Shown one piece after another: positions 19,499-58,692 of a stretch of 64,000 nt of DNA; position 1 is the first letter of the stretch; each line of letters opens with the position of its first letter. The translations under genes and the position numbers were made by a program. Source of the DNA: Planctomycetia bacterium TMED53 (GTDB lineage: Bacteria > Planctomycetota > UBA8108 > UBA1146); assembly GCA_002167285.1 (NCBI GenBank), contig NHDG01000117.1, forward strand, positions 2,188 to 66,187. The letters are read 5' to 3'. Under the pieces are notes generated by a model. That model was not told the DNA's origin. It ran no database searches and was given only the letters and a program-made list of their open reading frames with translations.

Positions 19499-20778
19499 AA
19501 GTTATGTTTCCACGAATTATCGCTGCGATCGTCCTCATTTCAGTCGGTTGGTTCTCCCATAGTTTGGTTCCCACATCGGAAGCACCGAAGGCTCCTCAAA
19601 GGGGAGGCTGGCCTCGTCCAGGAGGAATGGGCACGAGTGGATACGAAGGACGAAAAGGGAATGAAGAAGTCGTTCCTGTAGAGGTCAGTTCGACTCTGCT
19701 TGCTGTGATTCGTGAAAGAGTTCGAAGCAGCGGGATTCTTGAACCAGAACGAGAAGTAACGGTTCTTTCACGGGTCGAAGGAACAGTGGATGAAGTTGTT
19801 GCAGTCGAGGGCGCGCGTATTCGTGAAGGGCAAAGCCTTTGCGCTATCGATCAGAAAGAATTGCTGATTGCGGCAGAGGTTGCCAATATCGAATTGCAAC
19901 AAGCTAATGCGAATTACAAACGCCTCGAAGATCTGGCAAAAACGGGTGATTCATCTGGAGAGGTTCTCGAAAATGCACGCTTCTCCAAGGAGCGGGCTCA
20001 AGCGGGTCACCAGACCGCCCTCATCAATCTTGGACATTCCCAGCCGAAAGCCCTCTTTGATGGAATCGTCATGCGTCGTCGCATCGAGCCGGGGCAATAC
20101 GTGCGTGTCGGCGACGAATTGTTCACTTATGCGGATTTCGAGCCTTTGCGTGTACGTATGTATCTTCCTGAGGGTGAAGTTCAGGACCTCGAAAAGGGGC
20201 AGCGTTGTGTTTTGCGTTCGGAAAGTGACGGCCCCATCTTGACGGAAGGTACTATCGAGCGCATTAGCCCGGTGATCGACCGTCAAAGCCTGACTGTCGA
20301 AGTCCTCGCCATATTCCCTGAAGCCTCGGTGACACTCAGGCCAGGGTCATTTGTGCACGTCGATGTCATCACCCGAACATTGGAAAATCGAGTTGTGGTA
20401 CCGCGTAAGGCCGTTGCTTCGCGACAAAATCGCAATCTTGTTTACCGACTTCTCGCTGATGAAACGGTTCAAGAAGTCGAAGTGGTCACAGGCTTTGAAA
20501 ACGATTCCATCGTCGTCATCGAAGAAGGGCTTTCCATCGGAGACAAGTTGGTGGTCCAGGGGATCGAAAAGCTAAAAGACCGCAGCAAGGTTAGCGTCTA
20601 TCGCAGCATTCCTGTAGAGGTGGATGAGTTGACGGTAGAACCTTTGCAAACCGAAGCTAAAGCTCCAAACGTAAAGATTCCAGCTGGAGATACTCGAGCC
20701 GCAAAGACTCCAGCCGCAAAGACTCCAGCTGCAGATACTCCCAAAAGAAAAAAAGGTCCTAAGCGGGAAAGACCATAG
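19495..20778 (+). CDS. Efflux RND periplasmic adaptor (MFP/HlyD family)
   Basis: N-terminal TM segment, coiled-coil hairpin, lipoyl and beta-barrel segments (SRVEGTVDEV...; VVPRKAV...). ATG 19495 overlaps the DUF971 stop (ATGA). Confidence 0.85.
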   Translation: MKVMFPRIIAAIVLISVGWFSHSLVPTSEAPKAPQRGGWPRPGGMGTSGYEGRKGNEEVVPVEVSSTLLAVIRERVRSSGILEPEREVTVLSRVEGTVDEVVAVEGARIREGQSLCAIDQKELLIAAEVANIELQQANANYKRLEDLAKTGDSSGEVLENARFSKERAQAGHQTALINLGHSQPKALFDGIVMRRRIEPGQYVRVGDELFTYADFEPLRVRMYLPEGEVQDLEKGQRCVLRSESDGPILTEGTIERISPVIDRQSLTVEVLAIFPEASVTLRPGSFVHVDVITRTLENRVVVPRKAVASRQNRNLVYRLLADETVQEVEVVTGFENDSIVVIEEGLSIGDKLVVQGIEKLKDRSKVSVYRSIPVEVDELTVEPLQTEAKAPNVKIPAGDTRAAKTPAAKTPAADTPKRKKGPKRERP

Positions 20779-20802
20779 GTAGGGAAGTAGCGCAAGAACG
20801 TC

Positions 20803-23800: not shown

Positions 23801-23916
23801 CGTTGGCAATCACCGTAGTATGGGGATTGGCCGTGGCCACGATGCTGACCTTGGTCGTCATCCCAAGTGGCTACAGAGCATTAATGGGGGATGGAAACAA
23901 GGTGGAGTCGGCATGA
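20803..23916 (+). CDS. RND efflux permease (AcrB/HAE family), paralog 1
   Basis: 1037-aa protein with 12-TM architecture, N-terminal IRKPVTVAMVTVAAVTFGVLSLQRLPVELLPDINYPTLTVQT, and two large periplasmic loops. Confidence 0.9.
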   Translation: MEAFLQSIIRKPVTVAMVTVAAVTFGVLSLQRLPVELLPDINYPTLTVQTELPDASPQEVEQLVTNSIEEVVGVTQGLLRYTSTSRAGVSEVVLEFSWDTDMQRASLDVREKLDLVNLPDDARAPLVFRFDPSLDPMTRLALTGPRTIPDLRKLAELKIKRRLETVTGVAAARVTGGAEDEVLVDLDPQKLEVLGLDVTAVSRRIAQENVNRSGGEIRDRQTAYRLRTVKEFKSLEDIENVVVRQGQTGTVRVKDIGNVAIVPRDDEILVRVDGQPAVQIDLYKEGDANAVNVAKALRERLSDLKDDRELEGCELFVLSDQARFIEESIDSVQSTALMGALLAAVVLYVFLRNMLSTLTIALSIPVSVAVTFLLMELTGISLNVLSLGGLALGIGMLVDNSVVVLESIQRLREEGVEDREAVSKGTGQVLGGIVASTITTIAVFLPLIFVKGIGGEIFRDQALTVTYSLIASLFVAATVIPTVVSRGMGFSGGFVSKLIALIDQLLSPLARLFTWLLDLAQKAYSQTLGSLLKMPWGAPTLALALCMVVLPKADELGTELVPDLYQGQFYFDVELAEGTPLEETDRKIAAMEKIVSDLKTEGLPIELYTSTVGESPVLGEVQSGERREHIARIGLGLTSSASREDEARLIEKLEDRFRQIPDCPFTLGRPSLFTFRDPIEVEVYDEDLEVLRDSALNIGDRMSLVAGLTDVVPRVPDQVPEIHVRMDPYRLSAFNLNLGQVADGLRARGIGEISTQYRYAEKPIDIRVRIEGALDRTLDQASQDAVAQTESETGAMLRVASLGRLEEALGPVEIRRVGGERSVSVTARTDGVDLGTATANVSDALTGSFLPPTTTAKLSGQNLEMTESLQSLAMALALAVFVVYLVLASTFESLKLPFIVILTVPLGICGAILAMWITGIPLGVLSMIGVILLCGIVVNNGIIYVSRIQQLQATGLDPSAATLKAGSERLRPILITSATTILGLLPLALGFGPGAELRKPLAITVVWGLAVATMLTLVVIPSGYRALMGDGNKVESA

Positions 23917-26900
23917 AGAGTTTTGTTCGCCTCTGTCTTTCGCGTCCGATCACGACACTGACCGTGCATCTTTTGTTGCTTCTTGCAGGGATTTTGTCGA
24001 TTCAGTATTTGCCACTGAGTGCCCTGCCGAACTTCAGTCAGAATCGCATCAATGTCACCGTCCCTTATCCCAATGCTTCGCCGACACAGGTAGAGAACGA
24101 GGTGGTGAGACCTCTCGAGGAAGCTTTGGCAACCCTCCATGGTTTGGAAGGGATCGAGTCGGAGTCGAGTGATGGACGTGGTCGTGTCACTTTAAGATTT
24201 GGTCATGGCTCCGACACCGATGCGATCAAGGTCGAAGTCCGAGAGCGATTGGCGCGCGCGATCAATGATCTCCCTGTCGAGGATATCGAGAGAATTCGTG
24301 TCCGAGATGGGGGTTGGGGCCCAGGGGTCGATACCATCATCGAAGCCCGGATCAGCTCAAAGGGCATCGATCTCTCTGAAAACTACGACCTACTCGTCAA
24401 TCGTATTCAAAGACCTTTGGAACGGATCGATGGCGTTGGCCAGGTAGAATTAGATGGCATCAAGCCTCTCGAAGTTCGAATTCAATTCCGCAAAGGCGAT
24501 CTCGAAAGACACGGGCTGACCCTTGGAGGGATCGCTGCCGTCATCAATGGGTCGAATATCGATGCGACCATCGGCAGGATTTGGAAAGAGGGCAAAACCC
24601 GTCGCCTGCGCATGATCAATGCGATCGACGACTACGATGACCTTTTCGATTTGCCGATCAATGATCGGGGATTGCGCCTCGGCCAAGTGGCAACCATCGA
24701 GCGTATCGAAGGAGAAATGCGCTGGGGGCGTCACCTCAATCACTCTCGGGCGATCTCCTTGGAGATTGCCCAGCAATCTGGAGCGAACACCGTGAATACG
24801 TGTCGCCGGGTTCGAGAAGTGGTCAAGACGATCCAGGAAGATCCACAGTTGGCCGGGATCACGCTATTGGTTTGGCAAGATCAAGGAAAGATGATCGAAA
24901 ACTCCATCCGGCAACTGCGGGATGCTGGATTCATCGGTGGAGGATTGGCGCTGGTCGTGCTCTTGATCTTCCTCCGAAGATTTTCGGCGACCTTCCTTGT
25001 CGGTATGGCGATCCCCATCTCTGTGCTCTCGGCGATGGCTGCCCTTTACCTCTTTGAAATGGAACTCAACACCATCACGATCCTGGCGCTGATGCTGGGA
25101 GTGGGAATGCTGGTCGATACTGCGGTCGTCGTTGTCGAATCCATCGTTCGTCGTGCCACTATGGGTGAAGCTCCTACCGAGGCGGCGACACGGGGAACGA
25201 TGGAAGTGGCGACGCCGGTATTCGCCGCAACATTGACGACGATGGTGGTGTTCCTACCAGTGATGATCGCTGGAGACAGTCAATTTTCCGAGCACCTCGG
25301 TAATGTGGGACTCGTGATCTCATTGACTATCGGCGCCAGTCTCTTTGTTTCTCTGACTTTGGTTCCGATGGTTTCCGCACGTATCTTTGGCAGTAAAGCT
25401 GTGAAAAAAGCGGCTTGGTTTGAATCTTTCAAAGGTTTGTACCTGCGCTTCCTCGGCGGCGCTGTTCGGCACAGGTTCCTGACTATCGCTATCGCTCTGG
25501 CAGCAACCCTGAGTGTGATCATTCCATTCCAGAATGGTTTCCGTCTCAATATGTCGGACATGGATTGGAAGGCGAGCTTTGCAAACATCGCCTACAACCC
25601 TGTCGAAGGTCTCGACTATCGGGAGATGGAGAAAGTGGTCACCCAAGTTGAGCTGCTTTTAGAGAGTCGTCGGGATGTGATCGGTGAAGGAGATATCTAT
25701 TCATGGTTCGCTGACGGAACTGCACTGACAAGGATTTATCCGCCACAAGAGATGGCAACGGAGGAGTACCTTGCTGATCTCAAAGCGCGTATCTCGCCAA
25801 TTTTGCCGAAGATTCCAGGTTTTAACATCAAGACCAGTGACGGTTGGGGTTGGGGTGGACGCGGCGGCGGACGCTCAAGTGCAGGTTCGATCAATGTGCG
25901 CTTAAAAGGGGTCTCAGGATCGCTTCTCGATGAACTTGCTCCACAAGTTGCGGCGTATCTCGCCAATGTGGAGGGGGTTGCTGACAGCGAGATTCGCGGC
26001 AGGAATCAAGTCGATGAGCTTCGTCTCGAGCCGGATGAGGATCTCTTGAGTCGGCTGCAAGTTTCTGGTGATCAAGTTGCGCGCAGCGTCAGTATGTCAT
26101 TTGCCGGGAGTCGGCTCTCCAGTTTGCGGACTCGATCGAGCGATATGGAGATCAGTCTCGGGCTTCTTGAAGAGGAGACCGATACTGTTGCCGAGCTCAA
26201 AGGAATGCGGTTCCCGGTGACCGCTGATCTGGAACTCCCGGTAGAAGATCTCGGTGATCTCGTTCAGGCAGAGGCTCCCGACGAACGAAAGAGGTGGGAT
26301 CGCCTCGCTTACGCCAATGTCTCGGTGGAGATGGGGCGTGGTGATCAGCAACAGATTCAAGCTCGGATCGAACAAGCGCTCGAATCTTATACCTGGCCAG
26401 TGGGTTATACCTGGGATCTGGGTGAGCAATGGTCGGGGCGCTGGCGTAATCGAGAATCTTTCGGCGAGGGGATGTACCTCTCTGTCTTCCTCGTTTACAT
26501 GGTTCTCGCTTGTCTCTTCGAATCTCTGAGAACACCTCTGGTGTTGATGGTCTCTGTGTTCCTCGCCATCCCTGGTGTGATTTGGACTCTTTATCTACAG
26601 GGCGACAATCTCGATACACCGGCGGCGGTAGGGACGATCCTTTTGAGTGGTATCGTCGTCAATAATGGGATCGTTCTCATCGATCAGATATTGCGCAGGA
26701 TGGCAGAGGGACAATCGCGTATCGATGCCATCATCGATGGTGCGGGGGATCGTTTGCGCCCGATTCTGATCACGGCATTGACGACGATTCTCGGACTGAT
26801 TCCTATGGCCTACACGACCCAAATCACGACAGGCCCTTCCTTCACGACCCTCGGAAAAACAATTATCGGGGGTTTGGGGGCGTCGACACTGCTGACTCTG

Positions 26901-26996
26901 ATCGTGCTTCCAGTGGTGCTTTCATTGACCCTGAAGCCCTCGCGAGAGGTCGTGGAAGTAGCTCCCCACGAGGGCGAATCATCCAGCGAAGTGTAG
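23913..26996 (+). CDS. RND efflux permease, paralog 2
   Basis: MKSFVRLCLSRPITTLTVHLL...LPLSALPNFSQNRINVTVPYP, 12-TM architecture. ATG 23913 overlaps the stop of paralog 1 (ATGA). Confidence 0.9.
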   Translation: MKSFVRLCLSRPITTLTVHLLLLLAGILSIQYLPLSALPNFSQNRINVTVPYPNASPTQVENEVVRPLEEALATLHGLEGIESESSDGRGRVTLRFGHGSDTDAIKVEVRERLARAINDLPVEDIERIRVRDGGWGPGVDTIIEARISSKGIDLSENYDLLVNRIQRPLERIDGVGQVELDGIKPLEVRIQFRKGDLERHGLTLGGIAAVINGSNIDATIGRIWKEGKTRRLRMINAIDDYDDLFDLPINDRGLRLGQVATIERIEGEMRWGRHLNHSRAISLEIAQQSGANTVNTCRRVREVVKTIQEDPQLAGITLLVWQDQGKMIENSIRQLRDAGFIGGGLALVVLLIFLRRFSATFLVGMAIPISVLSAMAALYLFEMELNTITILALMLGVGMLVDTAVVVVESIVRRATMGEAPTEAATRGTMEVATPVFAATLTTMVVFLPVMIAGDSQFSEHLGNVGLVISLTIGASLFVSLTLVPMVSARIFGSKAVKKAAWFESFKGLYLRFLGGAVRHRFLTIAIALAATLSVIIPFQNGFRLNMSDMDWKASFANIAYNPVEGLDYREMEKVVTQVELLLESRRDVIGEGDIYSWFADGTALTRIYPPQEMATEEYLADLKARISPILPKIPGFNIKTSDGWGWGGRGGGRSSAGSINVRLKGVSGSLLDELAPQVAAYLANVEGVADSEIRGRNQVDELRLEPDEDLLSRLQVSGDQVARSVSMSFAGSRLSSLRTRSSDMEISLGLLEEETDTVAELKGMRFPVTADLELPVEDLGDLVQAEAPDERKRWDRLAYANVSVEMGRGDQQQIQARIEQALESYTWPVGYTWDLGEQWSGRWRNRESFGEGMYLSVFLVYMVLACLFESLRTPLVLMVSVFLAIPGVIWTLYLQGDNLDTPAAVGTILLSGIVVNNGIVLIDQILRRMAEGQSRIDAIIDGAGDRLRPILITALTTILGLIPMAYTTQITTGPSFTTLGKTIIGGLGASTLLTLIVLPVVLSLTLKPSREVVEVAPHEGESSSEV

Positions 26997-27141: not shown

Positions 27142-27157
27142 TGGCATGAGATCTGCC
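27142..27157 (+). promoter_or_regulatory. Candidate sigma54 (-24/-12) promoter upstream of the gspK-like operon
   Basis: TGGCAT-GAGAT-CTGCC, with GG at 27143-27144 and GC at 27155-27156, i.e. the canonical spacing of TGGCAC-N5-TTGCW. It lies about 80 nt upstream of ATG 27237. Confidence 0.55.
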
Positions 27158-28893: not shown

Positions 28894-30045
28894 ATGATAA
28901 AGCTGAATCTCAAATGGGTCGCAGCAGGTCTGGCCTTGTTCAATATCGGCGGATTGGCACTGCTGACCGTCACATTGTTGAACATGTATGGATTTACCGA
29001 AGAGGATCGAAAGCAGATCCGTTTGGTGAACCCGAAGGACTTCGAGATGCCTGCAGATACGCCGAGACCAGTTTCAAACCGTTATCAGACGGTGATACGT
29101 GATCTCTACAGAAAGAAGCCGGTGCCCCCCGTTGTACCAGTGAAAACTGAGCAGGAGCCTGAGCTTCCAGTTCTCGATGGCGGGCCGTTGAGAGATTGGC
29201 AAGTGACAGGAGTCATCATTTCTGAAGAGGGTCGAAAGTTTGCTACTCTCCAAGAGAAGTCGGCGAACCCTATCGGTTCAGCGACCACCGGCCGCAGAAC
29301 TACGACGAACTCGCGTCTACGAGGAACTACAGGAAGAACCTCTTCAAGAACGACGACTTCCCGTGGCAGAACTTCGAGTCGCTCGAGAGCTCCAAGTAGA
29401 CTTCCGAGTCAGAATCAATCGAGGGTGCGCTACATTGAACAAGGCCAAGAATTTCGGGTCGATGAGAATACTTACGAAGTTCTGAGTATTACCCATACTC
29501 CTAAGCAGATCACTTACAGATACGACAATCGTAGCTACACACTTCAAACCGAGGACGTTCTTGACCCGGTGATCAATGAGGTCGATGGAGGTTTGGTGCT
29601 GAAAGGCTACAGCCCTGAAGAATTAGAAACTCTGGGTCTCGGAGGCAGCCAACTTCCCGGGCGCGGAACGCCTCAACCTCAAAGGATTCCCAATGATTCC
29701 AGAGGAGCCATCAAGAATGGCAAAGGCCAAGATGTCTCTGGGGGAGCAGGCGCAAAGGGGAGTACCCCAGCAACGAACCGAACACCCACCAATACCCGAC
29801 CGACCCCGGCTAAGAATCAGCCGAGCAGATCCGGGTTGGGTGGATCCAATAATCAAAGGGGGCGTGTTCAGCCAGCGAAACCCAATCCGCGAGGATCAGG
29901 GCTTTCGCGGGAAACTTCCGAACAGAAACAAAGCCGCAAGCAACTTGAGGCCACTTTGGGGATCGATCTGGAAAAAGATCCTCAAGGTGCGATTCGACAA
30001 CTTGAAGGTTTGACAAACCCGCGCCCGCGATCGCGAGATCAATAG
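28894..30045 (+). CDS. Membrane-anchored protein, possible GspC/PilP-like (HR-domain) component with basic Arg/Ser/Thr-rich insertions
   Basis: N-terminal TM segment (WVAAGLALFNIGGLALLTVTLL). WQVTGVIISEEGRKFATLQEKS ... YIEQGQEFRVDENTYEVLSITHTPKQITYRY resembles the GspC/PilP HR beta-strand pattern. It is interrupted by GRRTTTNSRLRGTTGRTSSRTTTSRGRTSSRSR. SD aaagga lies upstream of the ATG. Confidence 0.4.
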   Translation: MIKLNLKWVAAGLALFNIGGLALLTVTLLNMYGFTEEDRKQIRLVNPKDFEMPADTPRPVSNRYQTVIRDLYRKKPVPPVVPVKTEQEPELPVLDGGPLRDWQVTGVIISEEGRKFATLQEKSANPIGSATTGRRTTTNSRLRGTTGRTSSRTTTSRGRTSSRSRAPSRLPSQNQSRVRYIEQGQEFRVDENTYEVLSITHTPKQITYRYDNRSYTLQTEDVLDPVINEVDGGLVLKGYSPEELETLGLGGSQLPGRGTPQPQRIPNDSRGAIKNGKGQDVSGGAGAKGSTPATNRTPTNTRPTPAKNQPSRSGLGGSNNQRGRVQPAKPNPRGSGLSRETSEQKQSRKQLEATLGIDLEKDPQGAIRQLEGLTNPRPRSRDQ

Positions 30046-32462: not shown

Positions 32463-34679
32463 TTATCTCGAGGCTTCGAAGAGTATCCCCTGACAACGAA
32501 GAGATTGGGTATCGACCCCAAGGATGAATGCTCCACCCCAAGTCGGGCTGGCCTGTTGGGTGAGTAGGTTTTGCCACGGTTCATGGTCGAGTGATTTACA
32601 CACCCTTTCGAGCAGGCCTGTGACAGGGTCAAAAATGCTCGCCTCTTTGATATCCATGCCGCCGTTATCTCTACCGCCGACGATGAGGACGCGCCCTCCC
32701 GGAAGTGGTGCGATTCCCGGATGAAGTGTTTCTTGAACCAATCGACCTACCGGGACCCACTCCAATAGTAAGTAGCCCCTACCATTGTCTTTGAGTTGCA
32801 AAACGAACCCTGTGCGACAATTGGAAGTTTGATGCGGGGCGAAAGGATCTGGGGTGGGGGGTTTACGTGTTCCCGCAACCAGCAGAGCCGAGCTTTCGTT
32901 GAGACCGGAGTCGATTCCCGGAAGCATTCGTAGACTTCGACGGGGGCCGGGGAGATCGGAATCTGAGCTCATTCTCAAACGTCGAAGGCTACGGGTACCC
33001 CTGCGGATTCGAAATGCTTCCGGTGCAGAGAGCACCCGGCAGTACTCGGCGGTAAATTTGACGTAGGGTGCACCCAGTGAGCCACCGTAGCCGCCATAGA
33101 TGAACAACAGCGGATCCTCCGCATCGGCGAGAAGAACTGAAGCATGTTGGTGGCGAGGATATGCCAACTCTCCGGCCTGATATGATTCTGCCCTGATCGA
33201 GCCGTCTTCAAACGATATGGAATCTTCGAGGATGATCACCTCGATGATTCCGTTTAATTCCCCCTCCAGTCGTCCACCGACGAGAACGATCTCATTTTCG
33301 TCGGCGATCACGTGTGCACTGTGTTCGAACCTGGGAGTGCAGGGCTGACTCATGGCGACCGGAAGAAAACTGGAGTTTTCAGAGTTTTGAACGAAGACTT
33401 CCGCATCATTGCGAACCTGTTTGCCATCCCAGCCACCGAAGAGCAGAACTAAATCATCCGCGGTTCCTGTGATGCCATCTTCGCCAGTCAGAATAGAGGC
33501 GGTGTGTCCCTTTCTGGGGTGCTGCATAGGAATCGGTCCGATATGCCCACCTCTGGGATTGAGGATCCATGCTTCGCCGAGGACTCGGGATTTACCGCTG
33601 GGACTTAAAGTCCTTCCGCCTGCGAGAAGAAATCTTCCTCCAGCGAGCGGTGTCAGTGTGGAGCCTTCCAGGGGAGGGACTCCCGAATCAAGATTCACTG
33701 GACTCCATGGATCGCAGTCTCCTTCAAGATCGACCACATAAGGTGCTGCGACCCCTGCGCCCCTCGAGGTTTGTAACTCGTTTGAAGGGAGGATCGAGGT
33801 TGAGGTGAGAGCCACTCCAGAACTGGAACCTTCATATTTGTACCTTGTGGGATCGGCGACTCCATCGATGGTCAGCATCGGTGAGGCGCCGAGAATCAGC
33901 GACGATTGCATCGAGGGATTGGAGGCGATCCAGCGGGCCGGAAAATTTTGATCGCCGAGGCGGTCCCCTGAGACAGGAAGGCGGATCAAATCGTCTGGTC
34001 CGAGGAAGGTGTCTCCGGGTTGGTGTATATCGACGCCTGTAGAAACCAACTTGTCCCACTCGAGTACCAAGAGGTCTTCCTGATTGACGGTTGAGCTGCC
34101 ATCTGTATCTACCCAGCGTGCACCGATCAGTTGAGCCGGCTCTACGGGGGAGGGGTTGATGACGATGGATTCACTGCTTTTCTTTTTGAATTGTGAGATT
34201 TCTGATTCGGGAAGGATCTGATTCAGGTTCACCGTTAACCTAGCCAGGTCTGCATTGGAGCCTTCTCCTCTAGTCAGCAGTGGAGAGAAGCCAGACTCGA
34301 GATAGATTCGCCATTCATTGAGGCGCTCGCCTTCCTCGATACGGTACTTTCCTTCAACGATATCGGGATGAGAGAATTGGAGCCCACTACTCGAAGGAGC
34401 TGGGAGAAGCATCGGTCTATCGAAGCTTAAAGTTAAAATTCCCTGGAAATCAGAATCGGCGATTTCGCTCGATTCAATTCGTGCGTCGATAATCTGCCAT
34501 GAGTCTGAAGGATTGCAGCCGATCACCGCCAACAAGGTCAGTGACAAGAGAAGCCACGAGATCGTTGATTGACAAAATGCAACAATCACGCAGTGTTGAT
34601 TGGAGTGTTCAGGGTGGCGAGAGGAATCGATCACCGAGATTACTTTCCAGGGTTCAGCCGAGGGCAGGTCTGGGTCCAT
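32463..34679 (-). CDS. Kelch-repeat beta-propeller lipoprotein (large)
   Basis: Lipobox LLAVIGCNPS and repeated Kelch signatures (HPRKGHTASIL..LLFGGWDG, PRFEHSAHVI..VLVGGR, PRHQHASVLL..IYGGYGG, PLPGGRVLIVGGRD). Start uncertain; the longest ORF extends to 34832 and would overlap the upstream gene. Confidence 0.6.
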   Translation of the reverse strand: MDPDLPSAEPWKVISVIDSSRHPEHSNQHCVIVAFCQSTISWLLLSLTLLAVIGCNPSDSWQIIDARIESSEIADSDFQGILTLSFDRPMLLPAPSSSGLQFSHPDIVEGKYRIEEGERLNEWRIYLESGFSPLLTRGEGSNADLARLTVNLNQILPESEISQFKKKSSESIVINPSPVEPAQLIGARWVDTDGSSTVNQEDLLVLEWDKLVSTGVDIHQPGDTFLGPDDLIRLPVSGDRLGDQNFPARWIASNPSMQSSLILGASPMLTIDGVADPTRYKYEGSSSGVALTSTSILPSNELQTSRGAGVAAPYVVDLEGDCDPWSPVNLDSGVPPLEGSTLTPLAGGRFLLAGGRTLSPSGKSRVLGEAWILNPRGGHIGPIPMQHPRKGHTASILTGEDGITGTADDLVLLFGGWDGKQVRNDAEVFVQNSENSSFLPVAMSQPCTPRFEHSAHVIADENEIVLVGGRLEGELNGIIEVIILEDSISFEDGSIRAESYQAGELAYPRHQHASVLLADAEDPLLFIYGGYGGSLGAPYVKFTAEYCRVLSAPEAFRIRRGTRSLRRLRMSSDSDLPGPRRSLRMLPGIDSGLNESSALLVAGTRKPPTPDPFAPHQTSNCRTGFVLQLKDNGRGYLLLEWVPVGRLVQETLHPGIAPLPGGRVLIVGGRDNGGMDIKEASIFDPVTGLLERVCKSLDHEPWQNLLTQQASPTWGGAFILGVDTQSLRCQGILFEASR

Positions 34680-34719
34680 ACGAATGTTGCCCCTCAAGGG
34701 GATTCGGTTCAAGTGGTGA

Positions 34720-35859
34720 TCAGCCGTCGTAGCCGAGTTTTTGCAGTGCGGTGATGATTTCTTGTTGAACCCTGTCAGAGGGATCCACACGGTCTCGGGC
34801 TTGAACCAGGACATTGATGGCTGCAGATCCATCGATGTTCAGAAGTGCTCTCACCGCAGAAATGCGCGTGGAAATGTTTTCGTCCTCCAGCAGGACCCTT
34901 TCGACCACGGGGATCGAATTGACATCCCTGATGCCACCGAGGGCACCGAGGTAGGATTGTCGAACGTAAGGGTTCAGCTCTTCCCCAAGGGCGGTCTCCA
35001 GTGTTTGCGAGTGGTCTTGCCCGCCATTCATTTTGAGGCCGTAGGCTGCGCGTTGGCGCACTCTGAAATGGGACGGATCTCGAAGTAATGCACCGAAGAC
35101 ATCGGTGTTATCGGCTGCACGGTCATGGTGGGTCAATGCTTCAACAAATCGATATCGATGCTGAATCGTATCTTCAGCGAGTGAGTACTCCCTGAGGATC
35201 TCCATCGATAACTCAGTATTTGCAAGTGCCAGGGCATCGATAGTGTGTTTGACTTCGCTCTCTTTATCCACTTCAACTGACCAATGGTAGTGGTCGATCA
35301 ACCCGACCAATGCCTCGTCAGATCCAATCTTGCCTAGCGCTTTGAGAAGAAATCGTCGATTGATGAAATCGGGTTCCTCCTTGAGCATGCCGACCAGCAT
35401 GGGGACATGCTCCGGGCCAAGGCCATCGAGCAGCTCCTGTAGATCACCTCGCGCGCGAGCGACTCGATGGGCGGTGGAAGCATCGAGGGCTTTACTCCAT
35501 TGGCACTTTTGAAACAGCTCAAAGATATCATTGGAGATTTTTTTGTCCTCCGGCGAGAGGGAGTCTAATGCGGAGGGTGAATCGTTCACTTCGGGCCCTG
35601 GTTCACCGATGGGTTCTGGTGAAGGTTTCTGGGGTCCTTCCGCTTTCGGAGTGGGTGACTCTATCGGAGTGGGATCCAAAGGCTTCCACAGTTGTGCAAA
35701 AAACCAGCCGAGGCACAGTAATGCGATAATCGCGACCCATTGCAGGAGGGCATTGCCCGATTCTGAAAGACCAAAAGAGTTAAAAAAGTGAGTCGAAGGG
35801 GAGTGGGCCTCCGATGAGGCTCCGACTCCCTTTCGACTCCACTGATCTTTTCGATTCAT
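34720..35859 (-). CDS. HEAT-repeat protein with an N-terminal membrane anchor
   Basis: TM segment LLQWVAIIALLCLGWFFAQLW and PBS-lyase/HEAT-like repeats (RRFLLKALGKIGSDEAL, VRQRAAYGL, YVRQSYLGALGGIRDVNSIPVV, STRISAVRALLNI). Confidence 0.6.
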   Translation of the reverse strand: MNRKDQWSRKGVGASSEAHSPSTHFFNSFGLSESGNALLQWVAIIALLCLGWFFAQLWKPLDPTPIESPTPKAEGPQKPSPEPIGEPGPEVNDSPSALDSLSPEDKKISNDIFELFQKCQWSKALDASTAHRVARARGDLQELLDGLGPEHVPMLVGMLKEEPDFINRRFLLKALGKIGSDEALVGLIDHYHWSVEVDKESEVKHTIDALALANTELSMEILREYSLAEDTIQHRYRFVEALTHHDRAADNTDVFGALLRDPSHFRVRQRAAYGLKMNGGQDHSQTLETALGEELNPYVRQSYLGALGGIRDVNSIPVVERVLLEDENISTRISAVRALLNIDGSAAINVLVQARDRVDPSDRVQQEIITALQKLGYDG

Positions 35860-35894
35860 GTAACTGATCGGTTCCTGTCCTTACAGTGTAACAA

Positions 35895-37787
35895 CTACGG
35901 CGCAATGATTTCGTTGGTGTTGGGCAACAGAATCACTTCGCAACTGATGGTTGCAGGTTCATCACCATAGTTGGGGAAGTAGCTAACCCCGCCACCGATG
36001 GAGACGACGCGATCGTCAACGGTGTCCAACAGTCCATCTTCACCAGGGATCACACTCAAGGTGTGGAGGCACTTCGCTTGAGCGAGCTGAATCAGAGGGT
36101 CGACAGCGACTCCGAAGTTATCGATGACGTCATCTGTGTAGGACGTATCTACATTGATAAATGTTCCGAAGATACCTGTCGGGTGGGTGATCGGGTTGAT
36201 AGTGGCTGTTGGATCCCAAGGGGGGTCATTCAAGAAGTTGAAGAAGGGGTCGTAGATGGTGACTCCGACCAGTCCATTGCTACAAGTTCCAACCATCGTT
36301 TCTTGGCAACCGTTGGGCGTTGGGAAGTCGAATCCGCCTCCGGCGGTCACTCCAACACCGGTGGTGATCACTTGACCGTTGTAGGTACGACGGGTGTTGA
36401 CCATGACCAAATCCGCTTCACTTCTCGCGAAGGGGCCGCAATTCATGGGATCTGCAACGATGTTTTCAATGTTGTTGGTCAAGCCAGGGGTGTCATTAAA
36501 CACCGTGAAGGTCAATCCGTCGGAGGGGCCAAATCCGGTGAAGGTTGCGACCACCAAATCATTGGCGCCGCCAGCGGTTGGGCAGGCGGGAGCATCATCG
36601 TCACCATTGGCGATCACCAGCAAGTTGGTCATCCCCGGTACGGAAGCGATATCCCCTGCGAGTGGATCGATTTCACCGTCAGGAGGATCGGAGAGGTCAA
36701 ACGCCAGGGTAGAATCGCGGACGACTCCTAGATTCAGCATCGCAGGAGTGTTGACGCGACCCTGCGCGACGATTCCTGCAGCCAGGCGATTGTCACCAGT
36801 AGTCACATCGTAGTATTCAAAGTTCTGAGAGTTGTCGGTGTCATTTTGCCACGGCAGTTTGAACTGGGGTGCAAAGATCGTCGAAAGGGTTTGGAACCCT
36901 CCGGCGTGAAGGATGATGTCATCCGTGGTTCCCAACTCATTGTCGAGGCCACCGAGTGCTCCGGAAGAATGGCCAACGCGTCCACGGGCACTGAGGAACT
37001 CAGCTTCCTGACCTGTCACCGTCAGTGCGGGTGAGAAGGATCTGGAAGCGGGATCGTAGATCTCCATCGACTTCAAGGAAGGGAACACATTGATCGTGAT
37101 CTGGAACCCAGGCTGCCCAGGAGCAAAGTTGGGGTCGATGATCGTTTCATTGCGCGACTCTTGGCCCCCGGCGATCAAGACTTTGCCGTTTGGTAACAAG
37201 GTTGCGGAGTGGCGGAATCGAGGGGTCGCAAGATCTGGGTCGATGGCTAAGGCATCGGGGCCAAACTCACGACTGCCAATATCGTAGATCTCTGAAGTTT
37301 CGTAGGCCTCTGCGAAGAGGGCATCGGCGGTGCCGCCACAGATGAGAACGTTGCCGTCGGGGAGGAGAGTCGCAGTATGGAAGATGCGACCACCTTGGCT
37401 CAGCGTCATGATGTCACCATCGACATCGGTATCGATGAAGTCACCGGAGATGGTGTCCGGGATCGGATCACCGAAATCGACGCCCCCACCTTGGTCGAAA
37501 ATCTCCGCGGTATCGAGGGAAGTGAGGTGACGTTCGTCGGTTCCCCCTGCAACCAAAACGGTTCCATCTCCCAGGACAGTTGCTGTGTGTCCATAACGAG
37601 GGGTGACCATTCCTGGTCCCCGGACCACAGCGTTGTCGTCGAGGAAAGCTGCAGCGTTATTGATATTGGGAATCGCGTCACCGGAACCGTGGCAACCTGT
37701 CAACGACACGACTGCCGCACAGAAGCACAGGAACAGGAGGGGGCTGAATCCAGAGGGATTCGGACGAAGATTTTTGAGAGGGCTCAT
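35895..37787 (-). CDS. Kelch-repeat beta-propeller lipoprotein
   Basis: Lipobox VVSLTGCHGS and Kelch repeats PRYGHTATVLGDGTVLVAGG, RIFHTATLLPDGNVLICGG, PRFRHSATLLPNGKVLIAGG, GRVGHSSGAL..ILHAGG. Confidence 0.7.
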   Translation of the reverse strand: MSPLKNLRPNPSGFSPLLFLCFCAAVVSLTGCHGSGDAIPNINNAAAFLDDNAVVRGPGMVTPRYGHTATVLGDGTVLVAGGTDERHLTSLDTAEIFDQGGGVDFGDPIPDTISGDFIDTDVDGDIMTLSQGGRIFHTATLLPDGNVLICGGTADALFAEAYETSEIYDIGSREFGPDALAIDPDLATPRFRHSATLLPNGKVLIAGGQESRNETIIDPNFAPGQPGFQITINVFPSLKSMEIYDPASRSFSPALTVTGQEAEFLSARGRVGHSSGALGGLDNELGTTDDIILHAGGFQTLSTIFAPQFKLPWQNDTDNSQNFEYYDVTTGDNRLAAGIVAQGRVNTPAMLNLGVVRDSTLAFDLSDPPDGEIDPLAGDIASVPGMTNLLVIANGDDDAPACPTAGGANDLVVATFTGFGPSDGLTFTVFNDTPGLTNNIENIVADPMNCGPFARSEADLVMVNTRRTYNGQVITTGVGVTAGGGFDFPTPNGCQETMVGTCSNGLVGVTIYDPFFNFLNDPPWDPTATINPITHPTGIFGTFINVDTSYTDDVIDNFGVAVDPLIQLAQAKCLHTLSVIPGEDGLLDTVDDRVVSIGGGVSYFPNYGDEPATISCEVILLPNTNEIIAP

Positions 37788-38189
37788 GCGTTCCGTCTCT
37801 TTCCTGGGAAGCAGGTTCTTTCCACTAGTCGAAAACCGGTCTTGCCACTGTTGTCAGCGATCGATACCCATCCTACACAGGAGCGGGTTCCTGGGCTTCA
37901 GATCTCTCGAAATCCCCGCAGAGATCTTTGGCGCAAACAGGTAGAAACCGGGTGGGGGACGGGCAGGTCGGGACTCGAAGAAAGGATGAGGCGGCGCCTC
38001 GCCAGCTTTCCCAACAAGACCGTTTCCCTACAAGCCAGGATTCTAGATCGGCCATTTGCAACTGTCTACCCAAGGCCAGTCTGCTCTTTTGGGTACAGGA
38101 GATGATCCATGCATCTCAATAGGACCATTCTACCCCCCGTGGAGCGCCGATGGCGATCTCGACGAGAGTTGATCCTCTCATGGGAATCA

Positions 38190-38205
38190 TGCAATTGTGG
38201 TGCCA
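38190..38205 (-). promoter_or_regulatory. Sigma54 promoter (consensus match) facing the Kelch-HEAT-Kelch operon
   Basis: The minus strand reads TGGCAC-CACAA-TTGCA, an exact match to TGGCAC-N5-TTGCA. It lies downstream of the gspJ 3' hairpin and about 400 nt upstream of ATG 37787. Confidence 0.7.
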
Positions 38206-38321
38206 AATCGCAAGTGTGTGGAAAATACTCTAATTGCCGATCTAAGCACACTGGAGGTAAGTAATCAAGAAATAGGCGTGCGGAAGTGGCACATTCGTGG
38301 GCTCTCTGTCAAACGAAAACC

Positions 38322-38387
38322 GGGGCCTCCGGTGGCTCGAACCTGGGGATCACGCAATCCGGGTTCTGCCATCCTTCCGGAGGCCCC
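38322..38387 (-). terminator. Terminator-like structure after the gspJ-like gene
   Basis: An 11-bp GC-rich stem, GGGGCCTCCGG / CCGGAGGCCCC (38377-38387 pairs with 38322-38332), encloses 44 nt. On the minus strand it is followed by GGTTTTCGTTT. The large loop makes this atypical. Confidence 0.4.
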
Positions 38388-38398
38388 TCACAAATCGA

Positions 38399-46243: not shown

Positions 46244-46259
46244 AGCAAATCAAATGCCC
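46244..46259 (-). promoter_or_regulatory. Candidate sigma54 (-24/-12) promoter upstream of gspD
   Basis: The minus strand reads GGGCAT-TTGAT-TTGCT, with GG at 46258/46257 and GC at 46246/46245, i.e. canonical spacing. Only the first T of the consensus differs. Confidence 0.55.
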
Positions 46260-46426: not shown

Positions 46427-47200
46427 TCAGGGGCGAGATCGATCCAGATCTTGAAGCATCTTTTGAGCTTCTTTCCAAAGGTGTTCGGGGATCCTGATCA
46501 GCAAAGAGTTGGTGGGCTCGTTGACGACGACGTGAATTCCCTGGCCCCCTCGATCCTCCCAGCGCTGCTCCAGCAGTTCAGCCAGCAATGGGGCTCTCAT
46601 AAATTGGGCCTTCCAAATCTTCAGTGCGGGTCGATCTTGGTTCGGTGGGGGGCGTTGGTCTTTTTCGCGAATCAGTCGGAGATAGTGATTCAAGCGCGCG
46701 TTGGAAGCGCAGTTTAGAACGATGCTATTTGTCCGAGGTGAAGGGACGAAGTTGCTGTAACGGTCGAGTGGATCGAGGTTTTTTTCCTTGGAGCGAGCTT
46801 CTGAGCGCAACAGGTCAACCGCTTCTTCCGGATCGAGATGTTCGAGTTGAATCACTTCGATGATGGGCTTTGGACGTGGTGGATCAGCCAGAGGATTGTA
46901 CGTGATCCAGTAAGCTCTTGGTTGATCAGCGGAGCCAACGGGTTTGAGGAAAAGACCAGAGTTGTTGAGAAGTGCTTCCAAGAGCTGAAAATTCTGGTGA
47001 TTCAATGTGAATGGTTTGAGTAAGTTCACAGGTGTGTTGCCCATTTTATCTTCAGCGTAGACGAGCGGGGCATCTGAAAGTAATGCCCAGCCTCTCAGCA
47101 GAGAGGCCGCGGGAAGATAACCCTTGGGCAGAACATCACCGGGTTCGGTAGGTAGCGGCAGCAGCAGAAATGCAGAGAGGCAAATTCCCAAGGTATTCAC
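46427..47200 (-). CDS. Secreted protein with Secretin_N-like repeats (free-standing secretin N-domain protein)
   Basis: Signal peptide MNTLGICLSAFLLLPLP. There are two segments shaped like secretin N-domains (IEVIQLEHLDPEEAVDLLR...RTNSIVLNCASNARLNHYLRLIREKD; LKIWKAQFMRAPLLAELLE...PTNSLLIRIPEHLWKEAQKMLQDLD). GTG start. Confidence 0.45.
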   Translation of the reverse strand: MNTLGICLSAFLLLPLPTEPGDVLPKGYLPAASLLRGWALLSDAPLVYAEDKMGNTPVNLLKPFTLNHQNFQLLEALLNNSGLFLKPVGSADQPRAYWITYNPLADPPRPKPIIEVIQLEHLDPEEAVDLLRSEARSKEKNLDPLDRYSNFVPSPRTNSIVLNCASNARLNHYLRLIREKDQRPPPNQDRPALKIWKAQFMRAPLLAELLEQRWEDRGGQGIHVVVNEPTNSLLIRIPEHLWKEAQKMLQDLDRSRP

Positions 47201-55005: not shown

Positions 55006-55342
55006 CGGTAACGACTCCGTTGCAGCTTTTTAGGATTCTCTTTTGAAGCTGCATGCTGCCACGAATTGGGGAAGGACTGCAGCACAATTCAGCAGAGTGG
55101 GAGTGAGTTAAATTACTACAAAAATACCCCATATGAGGCCCTATATCGGGTAAAGTGGCCGATAGGTTCGTGATCCTCGCCGATGTGTGTCTTCGTAAGT
55201 TTTTTATTTTCAAGGGTTTATGAATTCAGTGGTCAATTCGAGCTGAAGCCGGTGGGGTTCAGACAGCGGGTACACCATTTGCTATCTATATCCACAGCTG
55301 ACCCGCTGAATCGCCGCACGGTTGCGGTGCCTTGAGAGAGGA

Positions 55343-58548: not shown

Positions 58549-58692
58549 ATTTCTTCTACCGGAACCTACGGGTGGCCGGATGAAAGTATGCGAATCGAGT
58601 ATAAGTAACATGGGTCGAGAGACGTTGTTGTCGAGGCCCATAAAGTTGCAGTTCACCACCCGGGAGGGGTGGATCTGCGAAGGAGATTCAGA

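What the first reader, a model, noticed from the sequence alone, without database searches (positions are those of the whole stretch)
32463..37787. Kelch lipoprotein - HEAT protein - Kelch lipoprotein operon embedded in the secretion locus
Seen:
- Three co-oriented genes with short gaps.
- Both Kelch proteins carry lipoboxes (VVSLTGC, LLAVIGC).
- The HEAT protein has an N-terminal TM anchor.
- Both Kelch proteins share an unusual recurring insertion of the form G(E/T)DG..GT.DD before the GG of a blade (GEDGITGTADDLVLLFGG, NELGTTDDIILHAGG, GEDGLLDTVDDRVVSIGGG).
- The operon has its own consensus sigma54 promoter.

Inference: these are envelope-exposed beta-propellers co-regulated with the T2SS-like machine. 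Bacterial Kelch propellers are often sugar- or protein-binding or oxidase scaffolds, and the function here is not predictable from sequence.
Basis: partly seen in the sequence, partly recalled or inferred. Interest (0 to 1): 0.65.

Follow-up and report, generated by a model that had tools for sequence, protein, structure and literature searches.

The report
Kelch lipoprotein module in secretion locus
Two lipid-anchored Kelch propeller proteins and a membrane-anchored HEAT-repeat protein form a three-gene module that is always embedded in a type II secretion-like gene cluster of uncultured marine Planctomycetota, most likely as the machine's own surface-displayed cargo plus helper, a combination not described before.

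Summary
Both Kelch proteins have conserved lipobox cysteines, and the HEAT protein has one conserved transmembrane helix. The odd G-x-D-G..T-x-DD hairpin before 'GG' marks these two families and no other Kelch hits. In every related locus with enough flank but one, from KelA 89% down to 39% identity, the order is GspD-E-F-G-H-I-J, KelA-HEAT-KelB, then convergent GspM/L/?/K. Sigma-54-type -24/-12 elements precede the Kelch, gspD and gspK units in most loci but degrade in the most distant. A sigma-70-like promoter before KelA is conserved in all. Fold searches give only generic Kelch propellers. The wider KelA-type family always carries an N-terminal tether. This is either a lipobox with a Gly/Ser-rich tract or a signal peptide with a dockerin-like module. 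Best reading (about 0.4): the two propellers are secretion-system-dependent surface lipoproteins, like PulA or InvL, and the HEAT protein is their membrane-anchored chaperone or adaptor. The main rival is that they are structural accessory parts of the machine. This is a new variant of a known kind, of moderate interest.

The parts
35895..37787 (-). KelA: a 630-aa lipoprotein. Lipobox Cys32 is followed by a Gly/Ser-rich tether (CHGSGD) and then a Kelch beta-propeller with large insertions.
   Evidence: ORF. Pfam Kelch_4 1.6e-12. The 23-sequence alignment has C32 at least 90% conserved. AF2 model has pLDDT 78.7 and pTM 0.82. PDB fold hits are generic Kelch propellers and AA5 oxidases. dN/dS is 0.03-0.05.
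36897..36950 (-). KelA hairpin insertion 1 (aa 280-297, GLDNELGTTDDIILHAGG), between strands 1 and 2 of a blade.
   Evidence: G280, D282, T287, D289, D290 and G297 are invariant. The signature is family-specific.
35988..36044 (-). KelA hairpin insertion 2 (aa 582-600, GEDGLLDTVDDRVVSIGGG) in the last blade.
   Evidence: G582, G585, D591, D592, R593, G598 and G599 are invariant.
34720..35859 (-). HEAT protein, 379 aa. It has a basic N-terminus, one TM helix (aa 37-58, nt 35751..35686) and a Pro-rich linker. About 250 aa of PBS-lyase-type HEAT repeats are predicted to be periplasmic.
   Evidence: Pfam HEAT_2 7.6e-22. The nearest solved sequences are alphaRep designed HEAT proteins. The TM-plus-linker architecture is conserved in all orthologues. 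dN/dS is 0.07-0.08.
32463..34679 (-). KelB: a 738-aa lipoprotein with lipobox Cys55. It has two N-terminal beta-sandwich-like domains and a C-terminal six-blade Kelch propeller.
   Evidence: G54 and C55 invariant. AF2 model has pLDDT 69. Fold hits are KLHL12 and Keap1 with TM about 0.65 on the target. The start at ATG 34679 is chosen from homologue lengths and the HEAT stop at 34720.
33432..33485 (-). KelB hairpin insertion (aa 399-416, GEDGITGTADDLVLLFGG).
   Evidence: G399, D401, D408, D409, G415 and G416 are invariant. This is the only region where the KelA and KelB profiles align (hhalign 96%).
38191..38205 (-). Sigma-54-type -24/-12 element, TGGCACcacaaTTGC.
   Evidence: It is conserved with 0-1 mismatch at the same relative position in most related loci.
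38278..38312 (-). Dyad TTGACA-N14-TGTGCCA..CGCAC, about 90-105 nt upstream of the -24 element. It is a candidate binding site for the sigma-54 activator.
   Evidence: Conserved in nearly all loci, including the distant L020, L024, L026 and L030. The function is inferred.
38040..38068 (-). Sigma-70-like promoter, TAGACA-N17-TAGAAT.
   Evidence: The hexamers and spacing are conserved while the spacer sequence varies, in all 31 ppJ-KelA intergenic regions examined, including the most distant.
37900..37927 (-). Conserved inverted repeat in the KelA leader (AGATCTCTgcggggatttcGAGAGATCT).
   Evidence: Invariant block in the five-sequence intergenic alignment. The function is unknown.
46245..46259 (-). 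Sigma-54-type element GGGCATttgatTTTGC upstream of gspD. It is part of the putative common regulon.
   Evidence: It is conserved as GGGCAT-N5-TTTGC upstream of GspD in most loci. The distant L001, L024, L026 and L030 carry TGGC-type variants.
27142..27156 (+). Sigma-54-type element TGGCATgagatCTGC upstream of the gspK-like gene.
   Evidence: It is conserved as TGGCA[CT]-N5-TCTGC in the closer loci. L001 and L024 carry TGGCCC-N5-TTTGC, L010 carries a weaker variant, and L026 has no match.

Best explanation
The three genes are a dedicated module of a clade-specific type II secretion-like system in marine Planctomycetota.

KelA and KelB are exported by Sec, lipidated at the conserved lipobox cysteine and folded in the periplasm. 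The adjacent T2SS-like machine then most likely carries them across the outer membrane, so that the propellers sit on the cell surface tethered by their N-terminal lipid. This is the route of pullulanase PulA and the adhesin InvL.

The HEAT protein is anchored in the inner membrane with its alpha-solenoid in the periplasm. It most likely acts as their dedicated membrane-bound chaperone or targeting adaptor, in the way LipH/LipB and CpaB serve their neighbouring T2SS cargos.

The acid-rich hairpin (DG-h-h-[ND]-T-x-DD) resembles the C-terminal two thirds of an EF-hand or dockerin loop. It may bind Ca2+ or form a shared recognition surface.

Shown:
- The gene structure, the anchoring signals and the family-specific hairpin.
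- The fixed linkage to the gsp genes.
- The conserved promoter-like elements.
- Purifying selection on all three genes.

Inferred:
- Lipidation and the membrane topology.
- Passage through the secretin.
- The chaperone role of the HEAT protein.
- The ligand of the propellers.
For: 1. Linkage. In every related locus with enough flank but one (L038), with KelA from 89% down to 39% identical, the order is SecN-GspD-E-F-G-H-I-J-KelA-HEAT-KelB with a convergent M-L-?-K unit. The outer flank changes in the distant loci: AcrB is lost in L001, L024 and L026.

2. Regulation. Sigma-54-type elements lie in front of all three units, next to a conserved FHA-GAF sigma-54 activator.

3. Tether. A profile search of 1.84 billion representative proteins found about 39 full-length KelA-type clusters. 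About 27 have a lipobox followed by a Gly/Ser-rich tract (CGGGGGG, CNSGGR, CHGSG). About 12 instead have a signal peptide and a dockerin-like RGDxNxDG module, often with He_PIG Ig domains. One such paralogue has a neighbour with a weak cohesin Pfam hit and another a neighbour with a weak dockerin hit. Swapping a lipid anchor for a dockerin makes sense for a domain displayed outside the cell.

4. Sorting motif. Gly/Ser-rich 'GGG'-type motifs directly after the lipidated Cys mark T2SS-dependent surface lipoproteins in A. baumannii. Related motifs occur in Burkholderia, Shewanella and PulA (PMC12802150). Gly plus Ser make up 52% of positions +2 to +7 in the KelA family.

5. Helper architecture. 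T2SS cargos are often encoded beside membrane-anchored periplasmic helpers. Examples are LipH, with a TM helix, a linker and a helical domain (PMC13381987), and LipB and CpaB (PMC4713064). The HEAT protein has the same TM-linker-helical layout and sits between the two propellers.

6. Stalk. KelB carries two beta-sandwich-like stalk domains between the anchor and the propeller.

7. Compartment. Invariant cysteines (KelA C450 and C502; KelB C322, C547, C621 and C694) fit an oxidising compartment.
Against: - No experiment shows localisation, lipidation or T2SS dependence.
- The sorting-motif rule comes from Gammaproteobacteria. Gly/Ser tethers are common in lipoproteins generally, and KelB has a Pro/Ser/Thr/Arg-rich tract instead.
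- No AsmA-like GspN, which the cited work found necessary for lipoprotein cargo, was detected in the locus.
- The HEAT protein has no sequence similarity to Lif-type foldases or to CpaB.
- KelA is as constrained as core machine parts. Its dN is 0.065, against 0.041 for GspE and 0.056 for GspJ. Its position inside the gsp cluster is fixed. Both fit a structural component at least as well as a cargo.
- The Dockerin_1 matches are below Pfam's threshold (E 4e-4 to 0.2).
Confidence: 0.4

Rival explanations
1. KelA, KelB and HEAT are structural accessory parts of the machine. KelA and KelB are outer-membrane lipoproteins facing the periplasm that assemble around or under the secretin. They would act as pilotin-like or scaffold-like parts, by analogy with the propeller lipoproteins BamB in BAM or PorE in the T9SS. 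The inner-membrane HEAT protein would reach across the periplasm through its Pro-rich linker to connect them to the assembly platform, a GspC-like or TonB-like bridge.
For: - Strict synteny between gspJ and gspM across all loci.
- KelA is as conserved as GspD and GspJ.
- No recognisable pilotin, GspC or GspN was found in the locus.
- The HEAT protein has a TM, a Pro-rich linker and a C-terminal domain, the layout of envelope-spanning connectors.
- PorE is a precedent for a TPR-plus-propeller lipoprotein in a secretion machine (PMC5053529).
Against: - About a third of KelA-type family clusters replace the lipobox by a signal peptide and a dockerin-like module with Ig domains. These lie outside gsp loci, which is unusual for a machine part.
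- U383, with an N-terminal TM and a beta-rich C-terminus between gspK and gspL, and the SecN protein are candidates for the GspC/PilP role, so HEAT is not needed for it. This is inference.
- The operon has its own promoters, separated from gspJ by a terminator-like RNA element.
- Known pilotins are small.
Confidence: 0.3
2. The triad is an independent envelope module. It would be a ligand-binding or signalling complex made of two tethered propellers and an inner-membrane HEAT partner. It would share regulation and neighbourhood with the T2SS-like genes but would neither pass through the machine nor build it.
For: - It has its own sigma-70-like and sigma-54-type promoters and a terminator-like element after gspJ.
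- In L038, KelA-HEAT is preceded by TrkA, TrkH and peptidase M20 genes, not by gsp genes.
- Stand-alone KelA paralogues exist.
Against: - The linkage persists through divergence at which synonymous sites are saturated and the outer flanks have changed. Neutral hitch-hiking does not explain that.
- L038 is a single 10-kb MAG contig.
- L035, which looked like another exception, does have a gspJ-like gene upstream and a PilM-like gene downstream.
Confidence: 0.15
3. The propellers are enzymes. Candidates are copper radical oxidases of the galactose or glyoxal oxidase type, or NanM-like sugar mutarotases. They would act in the periplasm or at the surface. This concerns the activity, not the location, and could hold together with either of the first two readings.
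For: - The best solved-structure sequence matches of the KelA profile are AA5 oxidases and GlxA (E 1.7e-8 to 1e-6).
- Foldseek gives TM 0.40-0.43 over about 600 columns to galactose oxidase.
- There is a faint Glyoxal_oxid_N hit.
- JGI names many distant Kelch hits 'N-acetylneuraminic acid mutarotase'.
Against: - The matches cover one or two blades only, about 70-100 residues.
- NCBIfam GlxA scores 21.6 bits against a cut-off of 800.
- The 23-sequence alignment has no invariant Tyr. Its three invariant His all occupy the repeated R-x-x-H blade position. The Tyr-Cys cofactor and the Tyr/His copper ligands of AA5 enzymes therefore have no counterpart.
Confidence: 0.07

Closest known systems
T2SS-dependent surface lipoproteins (PulA of Klebsiella, InvL of Acinetobacter, SslE of E. 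coli, MtrC/OmcA of Shewanella)
   Same: Each has a lipobox signal peptide. The gene lies beside or inside the gsp cluster and is co-regulated with it. A Gly/Ser-rich tract follows the lipidated Cys (KelA). The functional domain is large and folded.
   Different: The fold differs (Kelch propeller) and so does the phylum. Two cargos flank a helper gene. No GspN was detected. Dependence on the T2SS is untested.
Membrane-anchored T2SS cargo chaperones (LipH/LipB lipase foldases, CpaB)
   Same: The HEAT protein has an N-terminal TM helix, a flexible linker and a periplasmic helical domain. It is encoded next to the putative cargo.
   Different: There is no sequence similarity to them. It consists of regular PBS-lyase-type HEAT repeats. 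It would serve two propellers rather than one lipase or protease.
Propeller lipoproteins that are parts of envelope machines (BamB of BAM, PorE of the T9SS) and PilY1 of type IV pili
   Same: A beta-propeller is tethered to or associated with the outer membrane and genetically tied to a trans-envelope machine. Like PilY1, KelA is encoded right after the minor (pseudo)pilin genes and has an acidic loop that may bind calcium.
   Different: The propeller is Kelch-type, not PQQ/WD40-like or PilY1-like. PilY1 is not a lipoprotein. No such component is known for any T2SS.
Amuc_1098-1102-type pilus/T2SS-like clusters of the PVC superphylum
   Same: The GspL-like protein of this locus matches the Amuc_1101 PilM-like family (2.7e-18, below cut-off). 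The secretin matches Amuc_1098 weakly. Both are PVC-lineage T2SS/T4P-like clusters that include an outer-membrane protein of unknown role.
   Different: Amuc_1100 is a small non-Kelch protein. The gene content and order differ.

Membership tests
Kelch-repeat beta-propeller | Repeated four-stranded blades with the GG doublet and R-x-x-H/hydrophobic pattern; a closed propeller fold. | tested here: met
   Pfam Kelch_4, Kelch_6 and Kelch_1 hits lie above gathering scores for both proteins. The AF2 models are all-beta, and their best PDB matches are Kelch propellers with E 1e-10 to 1e-9.
Bacterial lipoprotein | Signal peptide ending in a lipobox [LVI][ASTVI][GAS]C. | tested here: met
   The lipoboxes are LTG|C in KelA and VIG|C in KelB. 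The Cys is at least 90% conserved in KelA and invariant in KelB across homologues.
Bacterial lipoprotein | Actual acylation and cleavage by Lgt and LspA. | not testable with these tools
   This needs globomycin sensitivity, palmitate labelling or mass spectrometry.
T2SS-dependent surface lipoprotein (PulA/InvL class) | A sorting motif rich in Gly/Ser or Asn/Asp directly after the lipidated Cys. | tested here: inconclusive
   The KelA family is 52% Gly plus Ser at positions +2 to +7 (CHGSG, CNSGGR, CGGGGGG). KelB is Pro/Ser/Thr/Arg-rich. The rule was derived in Gammaproteobacteria (PMC12802150).
T2SS-dependent surface lipoprotein (PulA/InvL class) | An AsmA-like GspN in the system. | tested here: not met
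   No T2SSN or AsmA Pfam hit was found for any gene of the locus, including the unassigned U383 and M189. A divergent analogue cannot be excluded.
T2SS-dependent surface lipoprotein (PulA/InvL class) | Surface localisation that depends on GspD and GspE. | not testable with these tools
   The organisms are uncultured. Heterologous reconstitution is needed.
Lif-type or CpaB-type membrane-anchored T2SS chaperone | An N-terminal TM anchor, a linker and a periplasmic helical client-binding domain, encoded beside the client. | tested here: met
   The architecture is conserved in all HEAT orthologues. The gene lies between KelA and KelB. This is resemblance in layout only.
Lif-type or CpaB-type membrane-anchored T2SS chaperone | Sequence homology to lipase foldases or to CpaB. 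| tested here: not met
   Pfam and the PDB sequence search return only HEAT and alphaRep matches.
HEAT / PBS-lyase HEAT-like repeat protein | Tandem helical hairpin repeats of about 31 aa. | tested here: met
   HEAT_2 scores 7.6e-22 over three stretches and HEAT_PBS 3.7e-5. AlphaRep matches reach E 3e-16.
Copper radical oxidase (AA5, GlxA) | A Cys-Tyr cofactor plus Tyr and two His copper ligands, conserved in the family. | tested here: not met
   The 23-sequence KelA alignment has no invariant Tyr, and its invariant His occur only at the blade R-x-x-H position. GlxA NCBIfam scores 21.6 bits against a cut-off of 800.
Sigma-54-dependent promoter | GG at -24 and GC at -12 with the TGGCAC-N5-TTGC consensus and spacing. 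| tested here: met
   The match at 38205..38191 is perfect. It is conserved in position in most related loci.
Sigma-54-dependent promoter | A cognate enhancer-binding protein and an upstream activator site. | tested here: inconclusive
   An FHA-GAF-AAA-HTH activator is encoded at 49268..47343 and is syntenic in distant loci. A conserved dyad lies 90-105 nt upstream. Binding is untested, and a second activator lies at 57121..58548.
PilY1-like pilus-associated propeller | A PilY1/PilC C-terminal propeller fold, not lipidated, associated with minor pilins. | tested here: not met
   There is no PilY1/PilC Pfam hit. No PilY1 structure appears among the top 50 fold matches. A lipobox is present. Only the gene position after the minor pseudopilins resembles PilY1.

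The most novel reading that the evidence does not exclude
The Kelch-HEAT-Kelch triad defines a previously unrecognised T2SS subtype in Planctomycetota. In it, two lipid-anchored Kelch propellers and an envelope-spanning HEAT protein are obligatory parts of the apparatus. They would take over the pilotin, GspC or GspN roles, or gate and receive the pseudopilus at the outer membrane through Ca2+-binding hairpins. They would not be mere cargo.
Probability: 0.25. Interest if true: 0.7.

Novelty: new variant of a known kind. Interest (0 to 1): 0.5.

Why it matters
Type II secretion has been worked out almost entirely in Proteobacteria. Little is known about what these machines do, or what they are built from, in Planctomycetota, which are abundant in the ocean.

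This module gives a concrete, conserved and testable candidate for one of two things. It may be the dedicated product that the machine puts on the cell surface, together with a new kind of HEAT-repeat helper. Or it may be a set of lineage-specific machine parts.

The KelA-type propeller, with its acidic hairpin and its interchangeable lipid or dockerin-like tether, is a recognisable new surface-protein family in these bacteria. Knowing its ligand would say something about how marine planctomycetes interact with particles or polymers.

The locus also offers a compact predicted regulatory circuit: a Ser/Thr kinase, an FHA-GAF sigma-54 activator and three conserved promoters.

Tried and rejected
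- Copper radical oxidase or NanM-type enzyme. Rejected as a membership claim because no catalytic residues are conserved and the matches cover only one or two blades.
- PilY1-like tip protein. Rejected on the fold and the lipobox.
- The conserved 80-nt element after gspJ contains a GGTTCGAG string and looked tRNA-like. ARAGORN found no tRNA or tmRNA in the window, and Rfam gave no hit at E up to 1.
- A far-homologue search with the GspL/PilM-like protein was meant to find the same T2SS subtype without the triad. It returned only close relatives, so the phylogenetic profile could not be extended.
- Pfam at permissive thresholds on the KelB N-terminal 270 aa, U383 and M189 gave nothing.
- A k-mer search for a common upstream activator site in front of all three sigma-54-type elements found no 8- to 10-mer common to all three. 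The gspD and gspK upstream regions share ACAACACTT.
- A literature search for Kelch with type II secretion and Planctomycetes found no paper. A broader search gave only analogies.
- L035 and L038 were examined as possible triads outside gsp loci. L035 turned out to have a gspJ-like gene upstream and a PilM-like gene downstream. L038 remains a single possible exception on a short contig.

Full report
**What is there.** The minus strand carries three co-oriented ORFs.
- KelA: 37787..35895, 630 aa.
- A HEAT-repeat protein: 35859..34720, 379 aa.
- KelB: the maximal ORF starts at 34832 and would overlap the HEAT gene by 113 nt. The ATG at 34679 lies 40 nt after the HEAT stop and gives 738 aa. That length agrees with homologues of 687-736 aa.

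Pfam confirms Kelch repeats in both outer proteins and HEAT_2 repeats (7.6e-22) in the middle one. All three genes are under strong purifying selection. dN/dS is 0.03-0.08 against L004 and L005, the same range as GspE, and KelA's dN is as low as that of GspE and GspJ.

**Anchoring signals.**
- KelA has VVSLTG|C and KelB has LLAVIG|C.
- In an alignment of 23 full-length KelA homologues the cysteine is at least 90% conserved. In 11 KelB homologues G54 and C55 are invariant, although the preceding signal peptides are not alignable.
- Every HEAT orthologue has a short basic N-terminus, one hydrophobic helix, a Pro/Ser/Thr-rich linker and then the repeats.
- By the positive-inside rule the HEAT domain is periplasmic. 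This is inference.

**The 'unusual insertion'.** Ordinary blades in these proteins read H-T-A-T-x-L-x-D-G-x-V-L-hh-GG. Three blades carry an insertion of about nine residues in this hairpin.
- KelA aa 280-297: GLDNELGTTDDIILHAGG.
- KelA aa 582-600: GEDGLLDTVDDRVVSIGGG.
- KelB aa 399-416: GEDGITGTADDLVLLFGG.

The Gly, Asp and Thr positions are invariant. A regex for the motif hits 41 of 43 KelA-family proteins and 8 of 12 KelB-family proteins. It hits none of the 77 other Kelch proteins that the same search returned. It is also the only region where the KelA and KelB profiles align (hhalign 96%). D-G-h-h-[ND]-T-x-D matches positions 5-12 of an EF-hand or dockerin loop, so Ca2+ binding is possible. 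That is inference only.

**Surroundings.**
- Upstream on the same strand lie a Ser/Thr kinase and an FHA-GAF-AAA+-HTH sigma-54 activator. They are followed by a small protein with two Secretin_N domains, then GspD, GspE (with an MshEN domain), GspF, GspG and three minor pseudopilins, the last GspJ-like.
- Convergent on the plus strand lie a GspK-like protein, an unassigned 383-aa membrane protein, and a PilM/GspL-like protein. The last is nearest to the Amuc_1101 family at 2.7e-18, below cut-off. A 189-aa GspM-position protein follows.
- The triad fills the space between gspJ and gspM.

**Conservation elsewhere.** Full-length KelA homologues come only from uncultured 'Planctomycetota/Planctomycetia bacterium' assemblies. 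A scan of species-representative genomes gave 40 loci, and all window proteins were mapped onto them.
- Every locus with an orthologue and enough flank but one has SecN-D-E-F-G-H-I-J-KelA-HEAT-KelB, then convergent M-L-?-K. The exception is L038, described below.
- This holds from 89% down to 39% KelA identity. Precomputed gene calls on two distant contigs confirm it.
- In the distant loci the outer flank has changed, and the RND pump next to gspK is gone. The triad stays.
- Possible exceptions were checked. L035 has a gspJ-like gene upstream and a PilM-like gene downstream.
- L038, a 10-kb contig, has TrkA, TrkH and peptidase M20 genes upstream of KelA-HEAT.

**Regulation.** TGGCACcacaaTTGC at 38205..38191 is the only such site in the window. 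One perfect match is not improbable by chance.
- The element recurs about 200-250 nt after the gspJ stop in most related loci with 0-1 mismatch.
- Weaker GG/GC elements sit just upstream of gspD (46259..46245, GGGCAT-N5-TTTGC) and of gspK (27142..27156, TGGCAT-N5-TCTGC).
- Each of these is conserved in its own form in most loci and degrades in the most distant ones.
- The three units thus look like one sigma-54 regulon. The syntenic FHA-GAF activator is its presumed regulator, and the kinase could feed into it through the FHA domain. This is inference.
- A dyad TTGACA-N14-TGTGCCA..CGCAC lies 90-105 nt upstream of the Kelch -24 element and is conserved even in distant loci.
- A sigma-70-like promoter (TAGACA-N17-TAGAAT, 38068..38040) lies between the sigma-54 element and the KelA ATG. 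It is conserved in all 31 intergenic regions examined, with a variable spacer sequence.
- So the operon does have its own promoter, but the sigma-54 element is neither the only one nor the most universal.

**Folds.**
- KelA (pLDDT 78.7, pTM 0.82) is all-beta. Its PDB matches are generic Kelch propellers: TYW4, KLHDC2, and galactose oxidase at TM 0.40-0.43 with 12-13% identity.
- KelB (pLDDT 69) has a signal helix, two beta-sandwich-like domains and a six-blade propeller matching KLHL12 and Keap1.
- The HEAT domain resembles designed alphaRep proteins.
- An oxidase function is unlikely. The KelA alignment has no invariant Tyr, and the GlxA model scores 21.6 bits against a cut-off of 800.

**The wider KelA-type family.** A profile search of 1.84 billion representatives returned about 39 full-length, single-stretch family clusters.
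- About 27 have a lipobox followed by a Gly/Ser-rich tract (CGGGGGG, CNSGGR, CHGSG).
- About 12 have a cleavable signal peptide followed by an F-x-R-G-D-x-N-x-D-G EF-hand pair. Its best Pfam match is Dockerin_1, below threshold (E 4e-4 to 0.2). These often also carry He_PIG Ig domains.
- The dockerin-type paralogues lie outside gsp loci. One has a neighbour with a weak cohesin Pfam hit, another a neighbour with a weak dockerin hit, and VWA-domain proteins lie nearby.
- This propeller is therefore always a tethered extracytoplasmic module, and the tether is exchangeable.

**Mechanism.** Two readings fit. I favour, at about 0.4, the reading in which KelA and KelB are the machine's own lipoprotein cargo, displayed on the surface as PulA and InvL are.
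- Such cargos carry Gly/Ser- or Asn/Asp-rich motifs right after the lipidated Cys (PMC12802150), and KelA fits that pattern.
- In this reading the HEAT protein is their inner-membrane-anchored periplasmic chaperone or adaptor. It has the same TM-linker-helical layout and cargo-adjacent position as LipH, LipB and CpaB (PMC13381987, PMC4713064).
- Points against: no GspN was detected, KelB lacks the Gly-rich motif, the HEAT protein has no homology to known chaperones, and KelA is constrained like a core part.

The main rival, at about 0.3, is that the three proteins are structural accessories. They would be periplasm-facing outer-membrane propellers linked to the platform by the HEAT bridge, filling the missing pilotin, GspC or GspN roles. 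BamB and PorE are precedents for propeller lipoproteins in envelope machines. A merely co-located independent module is rated at about 0.15. An enzymatic activity (about 0.07) could hold together with either of the first two readings.

**Novelty.** No paper in the searchable library links Kelch proteins, type II secretion and Planctomycetes. The finding is a new variant of a known kind: a T2SS-like locus with a lineage-specific Kelch-HEAT-Kelch module. It is of moderate interest, and the interest would rise if the triad proves to be part of the apparatus.

Noticed in passing
window 38310..38392 (-), directly after the gspJ-like stop codon (38399): An element of about 80 nt is almost invariant among loci whose synonymous sites are saturated. 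It reads GGAGGGGCCUCCGG-AAGGAUGGCAGAACCCGGAUUGCGUGAUCCCCAGGUUCGAGCCA-CCGGAGGCCCC-GGUUUU. It has an 11-bp outer stem plus a U-run (terminator-like) and an invariant apical GGAUUGCGUGAUCC hairpin. MFE is -51.8 kcal/mol and the z-score -5.3. Compensatory changes occur in L010, and L003 has a wholly different outer stem. A covariance model finds exactly one sense-strand copy per locus (86-100 bits; 63 bits in L020 and 39 in L003), always between gspJ and KelA. It finds none elsewhere in the window and none in the most distant loci. There is no Rfam or tRNA match. It may be a terminator with a conserved protein- or RNA-binding loop, or a 3'-UTR sRNA.
   Followed up: partly
window 38040..38068 (-), with equivalents in all related loci: A sigma-70-like promoter, T[GAT]GACA-N16-17-TA[GC]AAT, lies 220-400 nt upstream of KelA in most loci (further in L022 and L030). 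It is conserved in every locus, including those that lack a good sigma-54 element. The operon may therefore have dual promoters.
   Followed up: partly
window 37900..37927 (-): A conserved inverted repeat, AGATCTCT-N-GAGAGATCT, lies in the long KelA leader (about 250-400 nt). Its role is unknown.
   Followed up: no
window 47343..50914 (-): A Ser/Thr protein kinase gene overlaps the start of an FHA-GAF-sigma-54-activator gene at the head of the secretion locus. The activator is syntenic in distant loci. This suggests phospho-threonine control of a sigma-54 regulon that drives the T2SS-like genes.
   Followed up: partly
window 46427..47200 (-) and 28894..30045 (+): Two unassigned locus members are conserved in all related loci. 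One is a 257-aa protein with two Secretin_N domains but no secretin pore, encoded just before gspD. The other is a 383-aa membrane protein with a long Ser/Thr/Arg-rich region, encoded between gspK and gspL. They are candidates for the GspC/PilP-like connector role. No GspC, GspN or pilotin was recognised.
   Followed up: partly
window about 46350 (-) and about 27010-27030 (+): The regions upstream of the gspD and gspK sigma-54-type elements share the 9-mer ACAACACTT at about -110 to -130. The KelA upstream region does not have it.
   Followed up: no
L044, L046 and proteins P0032, P0036, P0041, P0042, P0043, P0164, P0186, P0189, P0203, P0209, P0224, P0282: These KelA-type propellers have an N-terminal dockerin-like EF-hand pair, followed by a conserved Cys-rich 'PFPxCG' linker and He_PIG domains. 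In L044 one neighbouring gene has a weak cohesin Pfam hit, and in L046 one has a weak dockerin hit. This hints at a cohesin-dockerin-type surface display system in these Planctomycetota.
   Followed up: partly
window 55322..61941 (+): A histidine kinase and an NtrC-type sigma-54 response regulator are followed by a 1090-aa protein with ten CarboxypepD_reg domains. The window therefore holds a second sigma-54 activator. Which activator serves the Kelch promoter is not settled.
   Followed up: no
window 19477..26996 (+): An HlyD-type adaptor and two AcrB-type RND transporters lie directly upstream of the gspK unit on the same strand. The second transporter is syntenic in all closer relatives but absent in the distant loci.
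   Followed up: no
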